A stretch of DNA of 64,000 bases from Desulfurococcales archaeon. GTDB taxonomy: Archaea; Thermoproteota; Thermoprotei_A; Sulfolobales; Desulfurococcaceae. The stretch lies in the NCBI GenBank assembly GCA_027022365.1, contig JALVYU010000026.1:416001-480000 (forward strand), in the 5' to 3' direction. Shown here piece by piece: positions 7,376-12,107 of this stretch. Under the pieces are notes generated by a model, which had not been told where the DNA came from, ran no database searches, and saw only the letters and a program-made list of their open reading frames with translations. The position numbers and the translations under genes are program-made. Positions within the stretch are counted from its first letter, which is position 1; each line of letters opens with the position of its first letter.

Positions 7376-8125
7376 TTGGTTGCAAGGATAAAGGCCTTTA
7401 TGCTTAAGGGATTTGATCCATCAGAACTCAAAGGCTCGATCTTCGTGACGGGTTATCAGGGCTTTGGAATGGTCGGATATCTAGCTAGTAGACACATAGC
7501 TATGGAACTGAGTCTTCAACGCGTAGGCTTTATAAAAACACAGCACATGCCCGAAGCAACATTCTATAAAAAAGGATATGGGCTCACCTATCCTTTCGAA
7601 CTGTATTATGGTGTTGTAAATAATAAGAAACTACTGGTACTCGTTAACCACGGTACACCCCATGTACGTGAAAGAACAAGATACGCCGAATATCTGGGCT
7701 CTTGGCTTAAAAGTGTAGGTGTTAGCGAAGCCATACTTATAGGCGGTTTGGACCCTGCTGTAAGGGAGAAAGAAGATGAGAAATACCGGTGGATCCCGAT
7801 AGGAGATTGTAAGAGACAGCTGGATGCACCATTGCTCGAAGAAAAACACGTTATAGGACCTCTTGCTCTAACAATGTTGTTCCTAGAAGCCAACGATATT
7901 CCAGGCGTGGCTATATTTGCTTATACGGAGCTGTACCGCCCGGATCCTAGGGCTACTGCTGTTGCTGTCGATATTATCTCAGATATACTGGGGGTTAAGA
8001 TAAAGACTGATCGCCTCCTGGAAGAAGCTAAGGTTATAGAGAGGATCGAGGAGAAGAAAAAAGAGATGCTCAAGGCTCTTGAAGGCGAGGTTGAGACCGA
8101 ACGAGAACATCCAATGTATGTCTAG
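7376..8125 (+). CDS. PAC2-family proteasome assembly chaperone
   Basis: TGYQGFGMVGYLA; IGGL; PDPRA motif. Confidence 0.85.
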   Translation: MVARIKAFMLKGFDPSELKGSIFVTGYQGFGMVGYLASRHIAMELSLQRVGFIKTQHMPEATFYKKGYGLTYPFELYYGVVNNKKLLVLVNHGTPHVRERTRYAEYLGSWLKSVGVSEAILIGGLDPAVREKEDEKYRWIPIGDCKRQLDAPLLEEKHVIGPLALTMLFLEANDIPGVAIFAYTELYRPDPRATAVAVDIISDILGVKIKTDRLLEEAKVIERIEEKKKEMLKALEGEVETEREHPMYV

Positions 8126-9653
8126 CGCATTTAATACCGTGCCCTAAAAGCATATCACATACTGTTTCTGATAGGCTTTCGGACCAGGAATCCCCAACAT
8201 AATATATTATTACCTCAACTATACTCTTTCCAACCTCCTCGAGTCTTATTATTGTATCAGCAATCTCATTTGAGCTTTCGATAATGGTATAACGGTCGAT
8301 GTTGTCATTGTATTCATGCTGGAAGAACGGGTAAGTGTTGGAAAGACTTGGTGAAAATACGCCTAGGAATGGATGATAAAATAGGCATTTTTCATCGGGA
8401 ATTATTTCTTTAACTAACTCGATGATGTTGCTATAAGGTTTCCTAATAGCTGGTACTAAGTAAATGGTATTTCCAAGATTTAGCTTAGACAAGACGAAGT
8501 CGTATACGTTCTTTTTAATTACTCTGAGTCTTGGATGATATAAGCTATCGTAGTCGTTCATCATTATAGCGAAGGTATTAGGTTTTGTGAGAGGATTATA
8601 TTTTTCGAGTAGCCTAACGTATTTCTTAACTATATTAAACGCTGATCTAAGCGATGGGTGAGCTTTGCTCTTATATTCGAGATACTCCCATAACCTACCT
8701 TCCTTTATATGTTCCTTGATTTTCCTGAGCTCCTCCATGAGGACGTATAGATTATGGGTCGCTAATAATTTGATCTGCTCTTTTCTCTTTAGACTCTTTA
8801 GCTCTGCCAGTGTATATCTGGAACATACTGGGCAATTGCATGGAAGATAGGTTAGCTCGTCTAACCGTCTTGTCCCTGTCTCAGTCATGTAGCGGCCGTC
8901 TCGAGCGTATAGAATATAGCTCGCACTATCAAAAAGATCTGCACCCAAGGCTACTAGAAAAGGTAGAATCATCGGGTGCCCGACACCGAATACGTGGAGT
9001 GGTTTCTGAGGGGGCAAATGTAATCTTGCTAGTGCGACAAGCTCTACTATGTCCGCATAATCATATCTTTCGAGAAGTACTGTAGGAGAACCTAGTGCGT
9101 GGATGTGGTAGGGATACTTCCATGCGCGTAGGCTGGAGTAGAGCACGAGATCCCTATATGGTGCCCCTTGAATAGGGAGAACCCATAATTGATCAGTATC
9201 CATTATTAGAGGTAAGGCTTCTGTTGCTCTATCAAAAGTCTCAAAGACAGCTCTACGTGCTTCTTCCCATGACATTTTAGTTCCTGTTGGTACATCAAGT
9301 ATAACGCCGATGTCAACGCCGATCTGTTTCTCATACTCGATTATTGTCTTATTATCTATTTCAATGTCTCCATAAACCAGTACTTGGTATCCCCCAGAAT
9401 CGGTCATAATTACTTTGTTCCATTTTAGCGTGTCGTGTATGTTCTTGGGTCTTCCTCTATTTCTTCTGTAGAAGAGGTATGCATTTGTAATGAAGGCGTT
9501 AAAACCCATTTTCTCGATTACATATAAGGGCACATCTTGTCGAGTAGGATCAACTACGGGAAAAAGGTAGGGTGTTTCCATTGTTCCGTTTTTTGTTTTT
9601 AGCTTTGCTATCCTTCCAGCTAGATCATATTCTTTTGGGTCATAGTATTCCAA
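8070..9653 (-). CDS. tgtA: Archaeosine tRNA-guanine(15) transglycosylase
   Basis: TDSGGYQ, LDVP, HVFG, DLFDSASY, CNCPVC...HNL Zn site. Confidence 0.93.
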   Translation of the reverse strand: MEYYDPKEYDLAGRIAKLKTKNGTMETPYLFPVVDPTRQDVPLYVIEKMGFNAFITNAYLFYRRNRGRPKNIHDTLKWNKVIMTDSGGYQVLVYGDIEIDNKTIIEYEKQIGVDIGVILDVPTGTKMSWEEARRAVFETFDRATEALPLIMDTDQLWVLPIQGAPYRDLVLYSSLRAWKYPYHIHALGSPTVLLERYDYADIVELVALARLHLPPQKPLHVFGVGHPMILPFLVALGADLFDSASYILYARDGRYMTETGTRRLDELTYLPCNCPVCSRYTLAELKSLKRKEQIKLLATHNLYVLMEELRKIKEHIKEGRLWEYLEYKSKAHPSLRSAFNIVKKYVRLLEKYNPLTKPNTFAIMMNDYDSLYHPRLRVIKKNVYDFVLSKLNLGNTIYLVPAIRKPYSNIIELVKEIIPDEKCLFYHPFLGVFSPSLSNTYPFFQHEYNDNIDRYTIIESSNEIADTIIRLEEVGKSIVEVIIYYVGDSWSESLSETVCDMLLGHGIKCARHTLDVLVRSQPRLQEP

Positions 9654-9654
9654 A

Positions 9655-10107
9655 TTACTTTCCCTTTAGAACCTTCTTTCTTTCCTCCATATATTTCTGG
9701 AAGAACTCATAGATTGTCTGTGCTAATGGGCCTGTGCCTTCCACGCCTTTCTCTGTCACCTTGTAGCGGCTCTGGATAATCACAGCTCTAGCTTCAGGTA
9801 TTATCTTGATTAAATGCTCAGGTATACGCATGTTTCTCATGATGAACTCCTTAAAGTCTTCGGGCTCGAATAATGGTATTTCTGTTGTCAGTATCTCCGA
9901 GACTCTTTCTCCCTTGATAAATACTTTAGGATACGTATTACCATTGTTATCAACAGCGTTTTCCAACAATAGGTTCAGACTCGGATGATCGAAACCAACT
10001 AGTTTTCCCTCGTAATATCGTCCATCAGCAAGAATAACCTTGATCTTCTTGTCAACTAGGCCGGCGAGCTCAGCCGCTAATCGTCTGGAAGCATCGATTA
10101 TGCCCAT
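9655..10107 (-). CDS. Lsm protein with C-terminal extension (SmAP3)
   Basis: Sm1 (YEGKLVGFD...NLLLENA) and Sm2 motifs plus crenarchaeal C-terminal domain. Confidence 0.88.
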   Translation of the reverse strand: MGIIDASRRLAAELAGLVDKKIKVILADGRYYEGKLVGFDHPSLNLLLENAVDNNGNTYPKVFIKGERVSEILTTEIPLFEPEDFKEFIMRNMRIPEHLIKIIPEARAVIIQSRYKVTEKGVEGTGPLAQTIYEFFQKYMEERKKVLKGK

Positions 10108-10196: not shown

Positions 10197-10547
10197 ATGC
10201 CAATATACAAGTGTAGGATTGATAGTATTGAGCCGCTCAGGTTGCCCGATGTTTATAGGGCTAAGCTTAGCTGTGATAATGTATCAATGGAAGTAGAGCT
10301 TCATGAAAAGATAATGAAGTTAAAACAAGGGACGGATGTTGAGGTATATATTGATAAGAGTAAGGATAAGTGTCTGCAACATGATTTCTGTGGCCGAGCA
10401 CATGTAGTTTCGATCAATAAATTCGAAGACTATTATCGTGTGGTATTATCTATTGCGGGGCTTCTTGTTGTTATCAAGCTTCGTGAACAGCCTAGGGCAC
10501 CGTTTAAAGTTATGAATGAAGTATATGTTGGTATTAGATATGTTTAA
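10197..10547 (+). CDS. rpo8: RNA polymerase subunit Rpo8 (RpoG)
   Basis: OB-fold-like pattern (DFCGRAHVV...SIAGLLV); position next to SmAP3 as in crenarchaea. Confidence 0.75.
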   Translation: MPIYKCRIDSIEPLRLPDVYRAKLSCDNVSMEVELHEKIMKLKQGTDVEVYIDKSKDKCLQHDFCGRAHVVSINKFEDYYRVVLSIAGLLVVIKLREQPRAPFKVMNEVYVGIRYV

Positions 10548-10656: not shown

Positions 10657-10992
10657 TTGAAACGTGAGACTACGATATTGGTCGAACTGCTTAGGTACTA
10701 TGATTCCACCGATGACAAGGTATTCGAAGAGCTTCTCGAGCTACAGCGGTATATAGCTCTCCGGACAGCCAAAAACAAGGATTTAGAATACTATATTATA
10801 TCTTATAGTAAGAACAAGGGGAAAGATAAGGGCGTTGTAATAGTAATTCGAGGAATACCTGAAATGACATATAGAGAATCAGAACTACTTGTAGACTATA
10901 TCAAGAGCAGATTCACCACGATCACTTGTAACCGCCTAAATCGTGGCAAGACAGTAAAGCTAGAACTTCCTGTGCCGCAAAATTTTTTCTAA
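10657..10992 (+). CDS. Hypothetical protein; probable N-terminal part of the frameshifted HerA-like ATPase
   Basis: TTG 10657 follows GAGGGG (SD-like); ORF ends CAA AAT TTT TTC TAA and overlaps the open -1 frame of the next ORF. Confidence 0.65.
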   Translation: MKRETTILVELLRYYDSTDDKVFEELLELQRYIALRTAKNKDLEYYIISYSKNKGKDKGVVIVIRGIPEMTYRESELLVDYIKSRFTTITCNRLNRGKTVKLELPVPQNFF

Positions 10993-11033
10993 GGCTCTTT
11001 AGGAGAAGATATGATCAAATAAAAGGATTTGTT

Positions 11034-12107
11034 GTGGTCAATTTTATGCAGGCGAGTATTAGATATCCTGTACAACTTATTGGTAGAAGTATTGAGAACC
11101 GCATGGGGAATAATGGAATAGTTCTAGGGAAGGCCCTCGGCTGTAAGCAGGAGCCACTTATTGTAATGCCAGTTAGTGTGCTGTATAGACATATTCTCGT
11201 GGTGGGGGCAACTGGTTCTGGCAAGACTAGGACAACGGCATTCATTATTAACTCATTACAACACGCCTATCCAGACAAGTATAGGGTGATAATCCTAGAT
11301 TGGCATGGTGAGTACAGTTCTCTTTTGAAAAAATATATTTATATAAATCCTTATAATGCCCCCATCAATATCGTTGATACTAAAACATTATCATGGATAG
11401 AAACATTATATGATGTACTGGGGCTAACAGATCCTCAAGCGTATGTTCTCCAGAAAATAATCGAGAAATCGAATATTGCTCCAAGTATTGATATCAAGAA
11501 ACTATATAGGCTAATCGAAGAAATGAATACCGAGAATGCTAAATGGATGAAAGAAGTAAAATACGCATTACTAAGAAGACTCGCCCCACTGGCCTACGGT
11601 GATAATTATAAACTCTTTACAGGGACCAAAGACTTTCTCGAGCTGTTCAAAAATAGGACTACCTATGTTATAGATCTAAGTATGATACGGGAGACAAGGA
11701 TTAAGAGAATATACGCTACATTCATTATTCGTTATGTTTTCGACTATGCTTTAAGGAATAGTATGCGCGACACTGTACTTGTGATCGAAGAAGCACATAA
11801 TCTTATGAAGAAGAGTGATTCTCTAGAAATAATTACACGTATGTTATCAGAGATACGTAAGTTTGGTGTTGGTGTTATAATAGTTTCTCAGTCCCCCAGC
11901 GGACTTAGTGATGATATTATGAAGAACACTGCTTCCAAGATAATTCACTCAATAAAATCCTCCGTAGACTTAGAAACTATATCTAGATCGCTCGTATTGG
12001 ATAAAGAACTCATTAGCATAATTCCTTATCTCGAACCGGGAGAAGCAGTCGCGGCACTACCTAATTATAAAAAGCCATTATTGGTTAAAATAGGGGGGTT
12101 TACCTGA
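11034..12107 (+). CDS. HerA/VirB4-like (DUF87) P-loop ATPase; frame open upstream to 10932
   Basis: RHILVVGATGSGKT, LDWHGEY, IEEAHN, EIRKFGVGVIIVSQSPS, L.PGEA. Confidence 0.88.
   Translation: MVNFMQASIRYPVQLIGRSIENRMGNNGIVLGKALGCKQEPLIVMPVSVLYRHILVVGATGSGKTRTTAFIINSLQHAYPDKYRVIILDWHGEYSSLLKKYIYINPYNAPINIVDTKTLSWIETLYDVLGLTDPQAYVLQKIIEKSNIAPSIDIKKLYRLIEEMNTENAKWMKEVKYALLRRLAPLAYGDNYKLFTGTKDFLELFKNRTTYVIDLSMIRETRIKRIYATFIIRYVFDYALRNSMRDTVLVIEEAHNLMKKSDSLEIITRMLSEIRKFGVGVIIVSQSPSGLSDDIMKNTASKIIHSIKSSVDLETISRSLVLDKELISIIPYLEPGEAVAALPNYKKPLLVKIGGFT

What the first reader, a model, noticed from the sequence alone, without database searches (positions are those of the whole stretch)
10657..12107. 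Candidate programmed -1 frameshift building a full-length HerA/VirB4-like ATPase
Seen in sequence: the upstream ORF ends CCG CAA AAT TTT TTC TAA (stop 10990-10992). This puts an in-frame X_XXY_YYZ heptamer A_AAT_TTT at 10980-10986 and a second, T_TTT_TTC, at 10983-10989, immediately before the stop. The ATPase is in the -1 frame, which is stop-free from 10932 through the site (KFFLRLFRRRYDQIKGFVVVNFMQ...). A weak hairpin TTCTAAG-GCTC-TTTAGGA overlaps or follows the site. A slip would give a fusion of about 483 aa. Established knowledge: A-AAT-TTT is the slippery site of Saccharolobus solfataricus fucA1, one of very few validated archaeal -1 frameshifts, and crenarchaeal HerA/VirB4-like ATPases include the Ced DNA-import ATPases. 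Inference: recoding sets the ratio of a short N-terminal protein to the full motor, possibly in a DNA-transfer or repair system next to thsB.
Basis: partly seen in the sequence, partly recalled or inferred. Interest (0 to 1): 0.85.

Follow-up and report, generated by a model that had tools for sequence, protein, structure and literature searches.

The report
Conserved frameshift in archaeal cedD
This archaeon and 38 related species encode a CedD-type DNA-import motor in two overlapping reading frames that meet at a short run of Ts, so the full protein most likely needs a programmed one-base backward slip, which is rarely documented in archaea.

Summary
An ORF from 10657 to 10992 ends ...AAT TTT TTC TAA. 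The ATPase frame is -1 and open from 10932. A slip would give 483 aa.

The two ORFs are the N-terminal domain and the ATPase domain of one protein. It is a CedD-like DNA-import ATPase, and it is a single chain in other families.

The family (Desulfurococcaceae, by relatives' record titles) holds 63 species genomes, and 47 have the orthologue. Of these, 39 (14 genera, 7 closed genomes) have the same -1 split at a T5 or T6 run. Three are +1 at the same run, four are in frame and one is partial.

- All 39 -1 loci carry an in-phase X_XXY_YYZ heptamer.
- The smallest overlap of the two frames is 10 nt.
- 17 of 39 have no ATG, GTG or TTG for the ATPase.
- Phe codons at the site are TTT in 71 of 71 cases, against 48% elsewhere in the same ORFs.
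- Codon-position bias switches frame at the run.

Independent metagenome contigs show no indel at the site. The fucA1 heptamer is A-AAA-AAT, not A-AAT-TTT.

No RNA or protein data exist. Recoding is strongly inferred. Ribosomal slippage is favoured over transcriptional slippage but is not proven.

The parts
10657..10992 (+). 0-frame ORF: N-terminal domain (NTD) of the CedD-like protein, 111 codons plus TAA stop
   Evidence: An HMM built from such upstream ORFs hits the in-frame N-termini of single-chain relatives that were not in the seed: L014 3e-26, L016 7e-21, L055 1e-17, L061 1e-18. Other families score 2e-11 to 2e-3. Third-position bias in the 0 frame is 8/3/13 variable columns.
10980..10989 (+). 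Slip site: overlapping heptamers A_AAT_TTT (10980-10986) and T_TTT_TTC (10983-10989)
   Evidence: The homologous T5/T6 run is present and in the same phase in 39 of 39 -1 loci, and 39 of 39 have an in-phase heptamer. Phe codons at the site are TTT in 71 of 71 cases, against 240 TTT: 258 TTC elsewhere.
10990..10992 (+). 0-frame stop TAA directly after the second heptamer
   Evidence: The 0-frame stop ends within 4 nt of the T-run in 27 of 39 loci.
10983..11045 (+). Linker read in the -1 frame (FF-x-R...RR motif). No start codon lies in it in the three nearest congeners (L002-L004); the window has GTG 11034.
   Evidence: In L001-L004 the variable columns by -1-frame codon position are 3/2/6. Five variable codons are synonymous only and five are conservative. 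The other two frames hold stops. The motif aligns with the in-frame FFRR of fused relatives.
11046..12107 (+). ATPase domain (-1 frame) from the genus-conserved ATG to TGA
   Evidence: Pfam DUF87 1e-22. NCBIfam CedD 1e-86, 292 bits. 29 invariant columns in 17 orthologues. The fold of the fused orthologue matches HerA 4d2i and VirB4 4ag5.
11205..11228 (+). Walker A motif (G-A-T-G-S-G-K-T)
   Evidence: G58, T60, G61, G63 and K64 are invariant in alignment A1.
10197..10547 (+). rpoG (RNA polymerase subunit G/Rpo8), conserved upstream neighbour
   Evidence: Pfam PF16992 5.8e-20. A homologue lies upstream on the same strand in 24 of 26 -1 loci, 4 of 4 +1 loci and 16 of 55 fused loci, within 1.5 kb flanks.

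Best explanation
The two ORFs are one gene, the orthologue of cedD. CedD is the second HerA/VirB4-type ATPase of the crenarchaeal Ced DNA-import system. Here it lacks the membrane anchor.

One mRNA is translated from about 10657. Most ribosomes stop at TAA 10990 and release a 111-aa N-terminal domain. A fraction slip back one base on the U-run. The slip could be tandem slippage on A_AAU_UUU or U_UUU_UUC, or P-site slippage of tRNA-Phe while the stop codon waits in the A site. All three routes give the same product. These ribosomes continue through an Asn-Phe-Phe-Leu-Arg junction into the ATPase domain and make a 483-aa full-length protein.

Shown: the one-gene ancestry, the conservation of the split and of the slip site, and the switch of coding frame at the run. 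Inferred: that the slip is ribosomal, its efficiency, and any separate role for the short product.
For: 1. One gene. The NTD HMM finds the same domain in frame in single-chain relatives. The CedD model is the top NCBIfam hit for the ATPase (292 bits) and for fused L014 over profile positions 68-526 (300 bits).

2. Ancient and retained. 39 of 46 readable orthologues in the family are -1. They span 14 genera and 7 single-contig genomes, including two Thermogladius chromosome records (L046, L047). In the tree the 26 -1 rows then available form one side of a branch (SH-aLRT 88). Identity to the window's ATPase is about 35-45% outside its genus.

3. The shift is pinned to the run. The -1 frame has a stop 3 nt before the run in 10 of 39 loci. 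The 0-frame stop ends within 4 nt after it in 27 of 39. The smallest overlap is 10 nt.

4. Heptamers. An in-phase X_XXY_YYZ is present in 39 of 39 loci. T6 loci have T_TTT_TTC (22) or T_TTT_TTA (10). All 7 T5 loci have A_AAT_TTT, against 14 of 32 T6 loci with an N_NNT_TTT heptamer. The loci are not phylogenetically independent.

5. Nucleotide-level constraint. Phe codons at the site are TTT in 71 of 71 cases, against 48% TTT elsewhere in the same ORFs. This holds in GC-leaning loci such as L015 (1 TTT: 13 TTC).

6. No way to start. 17 of 39 loci have no ATG, GTG or TTG from the opening of the ATPase frame to 24 codons past the run. The ORFs of 9 of these 17 were aligned in A1, where the Walker A residues are invariant.

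7. In the window's genus, third-position bias moves from the 0 frame (8/3/13) to the -1 frame (3/2/6) at the run, upstream of any start codon in L002-L004.

8. No assembly error.
Against: - No RNA or protein evidence exists. No RNA run holds the locus.
- No conserved or unusually stable 3' structure was found (mean z +0.1 over 26 loci), and no 5' stimulator was identified.
- ATG 11046 is conserved in 5 of 5 loci of the window's genus. An NTD-less ATPase could therefore also be made there.
- 6 of 39 loci have an ATG overlapping the TGA stop right after the run, which suits termination-reinitiation.
- The junction lies in a low-confidence inter-domain linker of the modelled fused orthologue (residues 125-134 have pLDDT below 50). 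Two separate chains are structurally plausible.
- The four in-frame relatives and the four +1 loci also keep T6. The run predates the split, or is kept for other reasons as well.
Confidence: 0.6

Rival explanations
1. Transcriptional slippage. RNA polymerase adds a U at the T-run in a fraction of transcripts in the -1 lineages, or drops one in the +1 lineages. Standard translation of these edited mRNAs then gives the full-length protein.
For: Sister clades use the same T6 run with opposite frame offsets: 39 loci are -1 and 3 are +1 in the family, with one more +1 locus in family f4. A polymerase that stutters either way would explain both. The run itself, rather than its flanks, is the invariant feature.
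Against: The run is only 5-6 nt. In bacteria, selection against slippage-prone A or T runs sets in at about 9 nt in a large share of genomes (abstract and passages of PMC1088944). All 7 T5 loci carry A_AAT_TTT, which matters for tRNA re-pairing and has no obvious role in polymerase slippage. A search listed no paper on archaeal transcriptional slippage.
Confidence: 0.12
2. True gene fission. The NTD and the ATPase are made as two polypeptides and work together in trans. The ATPase would start at an internal codon (ATG 11046 in this genus), by termination-reinitiation, or at a non-canonical start.
For: ATG 11046 is conserved in 5 of 5 genus loci. An ATGA stop-start overlap occurs in 6 of 39 loci. 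The break falls in a predicted flexible linker between two well-folded domains. Published CedD orthologues already vary at the N-terminus (PMC11823120 passages).
Against: 17 of 39 loci have no canonical start codon, and the positions of starts in the others are not conserved. The linker is conserved as protein, and in the genus evolves as coding sequence, right up to the run and upstream of every start. TTT is fixed in 71 of 71 site codons, which fission does not explain.
Confidence: 0.2
3. Decaying pseudogene, or a homopolymer sequencing or assembly error.
For: Homopolymer runs are indel hot spots. Most of the genomes are MAGs.
Against: The same state is found in 39 species, including 7 single-contig genomes. 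Independent contigs are free of indels at the site. Both halves are intact and evolve under codon-position bias, at about 35-45% identity to the window's ATPase outside its genus.
Confidence: 0.03

Closest known systems
CedD (Saci_0667 / SiRe_1715), DNA-import ATPase of the Ced system; NCBIfam NF053655
   Same: It is the top family hit. The NTD plus HerA/VirB4-like ATPase architecture is the same. In the tree it sits with Sulfolobaceae proteins that pass the CedD cut-off (L094 718 bits, L059 657 bits). The genome also has an adjacent CedA-like and CedB-like gene pair.
   Different: It scores 292 bits, below the 600-bit equivalog cut-off. It has no membrane helix. The gene is written in two frames. 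Neither CedD paper mentions a frameshift (0 occurrences). The function is untested here.
Saccharolobus solfataricus fucA1, the experimentally shown cellular archaeal -1 programmed frameshift
   Same: A crenarchaeal cellular gene is split into two ORFs, with the downstream ORF in the -1 frame and an in-phase heptamer in the overlap.
   Different: The fucA1 site is A-AAA-AAT. According to the 2021 review passages, that site is not conserved in the full-length homologues the review names. The site here is U-rich and conserved across 14 genera, but has no experimental support.
Magnesium chelatase A_AAA_AAR frameshift cluster (bacteria, Methanocaldococcus, Methanococcus)
   Same: A cellular gene has overlapping ORFs and a shift site under purifying selection across genera. 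Fused homologues exist (passages of PMC3711429 and PMC5009743).
   Different: The protein and the heptamer differ. That case was tested in E. coli cassettes; this one is untested.
U_UUU_UUA retroviral-type heptamer (HIV-1 gag-pol; recalled, from no call)
   Same: 10 of 39 loci carry T_TTT_TTA in phase.
   Different: The viral sites rely on a 3' structure. None is detectable here.
HerA (PDB 4d2i) and VirB4 (PDB 4ag5) hexameric ATPases
   Same: The fold of the ATPase domain of the modelled fused orthologue matches both: Foldseek E 1e-18 for 4d2i, and target-normalised TM 0.72 for 4ag5.
   Different: The N-terminal domain differs. The genome has a separate HerA orthologue (380 bits).

Membership tests
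Programmed -1 ribosomal frameshift (heptamer type) | Downstream ORF in the -1 frame, overlapping the upstream ORF | tested here: met
   the overlap is 10932-10992.
Programmed -1 ribosomal frameshift (heptamer type) | In-phase X_XXY_YYZ heptamer inside the overlap | tested here: met
   There are two in the window. 39 of 39 orthologous -1 loci have one.
Programmed -1 ribosomal frameshift (heptamer type) | Site and frame arrangement conserved among relatives, beyond protein-level need | tested here: met
   39 of 46 readable loci are -1. TTT is used in 71 of 71 site codons against a 48% background.
Programmed -1 ribosomal frameshift (heptamer type) | Stimulatory element (3' hairpin or pseudoknot, or 5' rRNA-pairing site) | tested here: not met
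   Mean z is +0.1 for the 60 nt 3' of the run in 26 loci. The 13 later loci were not folded. A 5' element was not tested formally. A 0-frame stop next to the run (27 of 39) may act as the pause.
Programmed -1 ribosomal frameshift (heptamer type) | Trans-frame protein product observed | not testable with these tools
   No RNA holder was listed. No proteomics is available.
CedD (NF053655 equivalog) | Score at or above the curated cut-off (600 bits) | tested here: not met
   292 bits for the ATPase ORF and 300 bits for fused L014. Only the Sulfolobaceae loci pass.
CedD (NF053655 equivalog) | Best and unique match in the genome; groups with bona fide CedD | tested here: met
   In the own genome the window gene scores 290 bits and the next hit 86 bits. 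The tree includes L094 and L059. No paralogue outgroup was included, so orthology is inferred.
CedD (NF053655 equivalog) | Architecture of TM helix + NTD + HerA/VirB4-like ATPase | tested here: inconclusive
   The NTD and the ATPase are present. By eye (no TM predictor was run), there is no hydrophobic N-terminal segment in the window ORF, while L021 and L029 have one. PMC11823120 says some orthologues lack it.
CedD (NF053655 equivalog) | Co-occurrence with CedA and CedB | tested here: inconclusive
   Adjacent CedA-like (110 bits, cut-off 330) and CedB-like (98 bits, cut-off 700) genes lie at G000:C26:347-351 kb.
CedD (NF053655 equivalog) | Required for DNA import | not testable with these tools
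   Genetics exists only for Sulfolobales.
HerA/FtsK-superfamily P-loop ATPase (Pfam PF01935 DUF87) | Pfam gathering score and Walker A | tested here: met
   81.6 bits against 23.2. The Walker A motif lies at 11205-11228, and five of its residues (G58, T60, G61, G63, K64) are invariant in A1.

The most novel reading that the evidence does not exclude
The U-run is an ancient, obligatory recoding site that works without any RNA structure and in both directions: -1 in 14 genera and +1 in two sister genera at the homologous T6. This would mean that the translation or transcription machinery of hyperthermophiles slips efficiently on U5-6 alone. The cell would use the slip to make a fixed ratio of free N-terminal domain to full-length CedD, with the free domain acting as a working subunit or regulator of the DNA-import machine.
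Probability: 0.25. Interest if true: 0.85.

Novelty: new member of a known kind. Interest (0 to 1): 0.72.

Why it matters
In the two reviews consulted (passages of PMC8211752 and PMC5009743), cellular -1 frameshifting in archaea rests on one experimental case (fucA1) plus a few predictions. This would be a second cellular case. It would be the first with deep conservation (39 species, 14 genera), and chromosome records of Thermogladius strains are available for testing (L046, L047).

It also corrects the picture of the Ced system. In these genomes cedD is written in two frames. Annotation would therefore probably show a short unnamed ORF plus an NTD-less ATPase, although no annotation was inspected here. 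Surveys of CedB/CedD/VirB4 distribution could then misread the gene (bioRxiv 10.1101/2024.09.27.615246, section 15).

The paired -1 and +1 clades at one U-run offer a natural experiment on slippage at high temperature.

Tried and rejected
- **Hairpin as stimulator.** Rejected: it is not stable beyond shuffled controls and not conserved (26 of the 39 loci folded).
- **GTG 11034 with AAGGA as the ATPase start.** Rejected as a conserved start: GTG is absent in the 4 congeners.
- **Assembly error.** Rejected.
- **RNA evidence.** No RNA holder was listed, so expression and U-run heterogeneity could not be examined.
- **scan_promoters_terminators.** Not used, because it models bacterial sigma-70 promoters.
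- **The search for homologous proteins, the search of protein representatives, the protein-atlas search.** Not used. The genome searches already gave the needed orthologues.
- **NTD HMM.** It gave no hit at E <= 0.01 in the upstream ORFs of L022, L027 and L030. Their assignment as split forms rests on position and on the junction motif only.

**Literature.** No paper describing a frameshift in cedD or in a Desulfurococcales HerA-like ATPase was found (searches; term look-ups). For every paper I saw search listings and passages only, except section 15 and the outline of the bioRxiv CedD preprint. Supplements are closed. Table S1 of PMC11823120 (the CedD homologue list) and the GeneTack cluster tables of PMC3711429 could mention these split genes, and I could not see them.

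**Rows dropped.**
- Tree: 89 of 91 distinct loci. L028 and L073 were left out as partial.
- 4 of the 5 genus loci. L005 was left out.
- 3 of 5. L001 was left out for a one-codon indel, and L005 for divergence.
Full report
**What is in the window**

A 111-codon ORF starts at TTG 10657 and ends AAT TTT TTC TAA (stop 10990-10992). The A4T6 run (10979-10988) holds two overlapping in-phase heptamers: A_AAT_TTT (10980-10986) and T_TTT_TTC (10983-10989). The -1 frame is open from 10932, after TAA 10929-10931, to TGA 12105-12107. Its first start codons are GTG 11034 and ATG 11046. A slip at the run gives 111 + 372 = 483 residues.

The downstream part is a P-loop ATPase of the HerA/FtsK superfamily (Pfam DUF87, 81.6 bits). 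The upstream ORF matches no Pfam or NCBIfam model.

On its own the pattern is not remarkable. In-phase heptamers occur at 0.0031 per codon in the window's long ORFs, and 1 of 60 such ORFs has one ending within 9 nt of its stop.

**What the gene is**

The best NCBIfam match of the ATPase is CedD, 'DNA-translocating ATPase' (E 1e-86, 292 bits). This is far ahead of HerA (88 bits) and CedB (60 bits), but below the 600-bit equivalog cut-off.

CedD was described in 2024-2025 as the second ATPase of the crenarchaeal Ced DNA-import system. It is essential for import in Sulfolobus acidocaldarius (passages of PMC11823120) and in Saccharolobus islandicus. It is built of a membrane helix, an N-terminal domain and a HerA/VirB4-like ATPase (bioRxiv 10.1101/2024.09.27.615246; outline, section 15 and passages).

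Sulfolobaceae loci in my set pass the cut-off: L094 scores 718 bits and L059 657 bits. Other families score 213-310 bits.

In the window's own genome this gene is the only strong CedD match (290 bits, against 86 for the next). An adjacent pair of CedA-like (110 bits) and CedB-like (98 bits) genes lies about 78 kb away on the same contig. Both are below their cut-offs.

**The two ORFs are one protein elsewhere**

I built an HMM from the upstream ORFs of split loci. It hits the N-terminal part of the same open frame as the ATPase in relatives that were not in the seed:
- L014, 3e-26
- L016, 7e-21
- L055, 1e-17
- L061, 1e-18
- many loci of other families (Sulfolobaceae, Ignisphaera, Aeropyrum, Pyrodictiaceae), 2e-11 to 2e-3

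Among the 91 distinct loci then in hand, 55 are single-chain proteins of about 480-600 aa.

**Census**

Record titles of relatives place the window's family in Desulfurococcaceae (Thermogladius, Staphylothermus, Thermosphaera). The family holds 63 species genomes, and 47 have an orthologue at E <= 1e-30. I read the junction in 46 of them.

| Junction state | Genomes | Notes |
|---|---|---|
| -1 split | 39 | 14 genera; 7 single-contig genomes |
| +1 split at the same T6 | 3 | G007, G022, G041 |
| In frame | 4 | G008, G016, G042, G043 |
| Cut by a contig end | 1 | G056 |

Two genera lack the gene: g13 (0 of 4 genomes) and g17 (0 of 3).

In a maximum-likelihood tree of the ATPase domain (89 rows, quick search), the 26 -1 rows then available lie on one side of a branch (SH-aLRT 88). 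Their sister is a clade of 4 in-frame and 3 +1 rows (99). The -1 state therefore looks like one old event kept through a radiation. Identity to the window's ATPase outside its genus is about 35-45%.

**Anatomy of the junction in the 39 -1 loci**

- Every locus has a T-run inside the overlap: T6 in 32 and T5 in 7. It is always in the same phase, with the first T as the third base of a 0-frame codon. That codon is AAT in 33 loci, AGT in 3, CGT in 2 and GGT in 1.
- Every locus has at least one canonical in-phase heptamer. T_TTT_TTC occurs in 22, T_TTT_TTA in 10 and N_NNT_TTT in 21. All 7 T5 loci, which cannot have the first type, have A_AAT_TTT.
- The ATPase frame carries a stop 3 nt before the run in 10 loci. 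The 0-frame stop ends within 4 nt after the run in 27. The overlap is as small as 10 nt, so the only place common to all loci where the frame can change is the run.
- 17 loci have no ATG, GTG or TTG in the ATPase frame from its opening to 24 codons past the run. Where starts exist, their positions differ.
- 6 loci have an ATG overlapping the TGA stop right after the run.

**Selection**

Phe codons at the site are TTT in 71 of 71 cases. Elsewhere in the same two ORFs they are 240 TTT to 258 TTC. Loci that strongly prefer TTC still use TTT at the site.

In the window's genus, the N-terminal ORF varies mostly at 0-frame third positions (8/3/13; L002-L004). The 63 nt from the run to ATG 11046 vary at -1-frame third positions (3/2/6; L001-L004). 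Five variable codons there are synonymous only and five are conservative, and the other two frames hold stops. The ATPase body gives 42/27/81. The coding phase therefore switches at the run, upstream of any start codon in L002-L004.

The linker carries a conserved FF-x-RR motif. It matches the in-frame FFRR of the fused relatives.

**Not an artefact**

Contigs of four metagenome runs cover the site. They come from three other studies and from another sample of the first study. No inserted or deleted letters were listed, and every laid piece has 0 gaps. One of them, X10, is a diverged strain whose differences include the variants seen in the congeners.

**What does not fit a textbook site**

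The 60 nt after the run are no more structured than shuffled controls (mean z +0.1, range -1.9 to +1.7, 26 loci).

The AlphaFold model of the natural fused orthologue L014 (pLDDT 89) shows a compact N-terminal domain (residues 23-111) and the ATPase from about residue 144. FFRR (128-131) lies in the least confident stretch (125-134, pLDDT below 50). The break is therefore at a domain boundary, and two chains would be structurally tolerable.

The four in-frame relatives and the four +1 loci also keep T6.

**Mechanism**

I favour ribosomal -1 slippage (0.6). All three possible routes in the window give the same Asn-Phe-Phe-Leu-Arg junction: tandem slippage on either heptamer, or P-site slippage with the stop codon in the A site.

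The 2016 review notes that differences in tRNA-Phe position-37 modification in thermophilic archaea are relevant to frameshifting at U-rich sites (passage of PMC5009743). Weak A-U pairing at growth temperature is my own inference.

The rivals are as follows.
- **Transcriptional slippage (0.12).** It would explain the -1 and +1 sister clades neatly. However, a 5-6 nt run is well below the roughly 9 nt at which slippage-prone runs are selected against in many bacteria (PMC1088944).
- **True fission (0.2).** It fits the 6 ATGA loci and the genus-conserved ATG 11046. It does not fit the 17 loci without a start, nor the TTT constraint.

**Comparison with what is known**

The 2021 review of archaeal recoding lists fucA1 as the experimentally shown cellular -1 case and does not mention ATPases or Desulfurococcales (passages). 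The 2016 review adds halovirus tail genes and magnesium chelatase.

I found no paper on a frameshift in cedD. Supplements that might list it are closed.

**Verdict**

This is a new, deeply conserved member of a known kind of recoding, in a newly described archaeal DNA-import gene. It is inferred from comparative genomics only.

Noticed in passing
L012 (G007), L018 (G022), L057/L142 (G041); also L022 (G027, family f4): In the sister clade of the -1 group, three species have the ATPase in the +1 frame at the homologous T6 (GGC/TCA/GGG TTT TTT CGA/CGG...). The codon after the run is CGA or CGG, which is rare in these ORFs where AGA and AGG dominate. This may be a +1 frameshift site. L022 has T6 followed by CTT.
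   Followed up: partly
L030 (G038) and L027 (G026), family f3: Two more split cedD-like loci have the ATPase in the -1 frame but no T-run. L030 has an in-phase C_CCT_TTA in a 31-nt overlap. L027 has no heptamer and has an ATG in the ATPase frame. The NTD HMM gave no hit at E <= 0.01 in either.
   Followed up: partly
L019, L134-L138: Six -1 loci have ...TTT TTA TGA, with ATG of the ATPase frame overlapping the stop (ATGA). This is the classic arrangement for translational coupling. These lineages may have moved toward true fission.
   Followed up: partly
window 10197-10547, and upstream in other loci: rpoG (Rpo8) lies directly upstream on the same strand. This holds in 24 of 26 -1 loci, 4 of 4 +1 loci and 16 of 55 fused loci within 1.5 kb flanks. 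The rpoG-cedD order is conserved across families.
   Followed up: partly
G000:C26:347-351 kb (L114), outside the window: Adjacent CedA-like (435 aa, 110 bits) and CedB-like (561 aa, 98 bits) genes are both far below their equivalog cut-offs. A VirB4/TraC-like 591-aa ATPase lies at about 356-358 kb, and a HerA orthologue (380 bits) on contig C30.
   Followed up: partly
Family census, genera g13 and g17: Seven near-complete genomes of two genera have no cedD orthologue at E <= 1e-30. This fits the preprint's statement that Desulfurococcus carries VirB4 instead of CedB/CedD. I did not name these genera.
   Followed up: no
G059:C1:1200307-1201332 (L140): the genome search flagged one TGA inside the match. 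In L140 the ATPase frame is open for 373 codons, so the stop probably lies at the C-terminal edge of the match.
   Followed up: no
window 9655-10107 (-) and 8070-9653 (-): An Lsm protein with an Lsm_C domain (Pfam). By eye only, the next ORF is a 527-aa archaeosine tRNA-guanine transglycosylase-like protein. These are ordinary neighbours.
   Followed up: no
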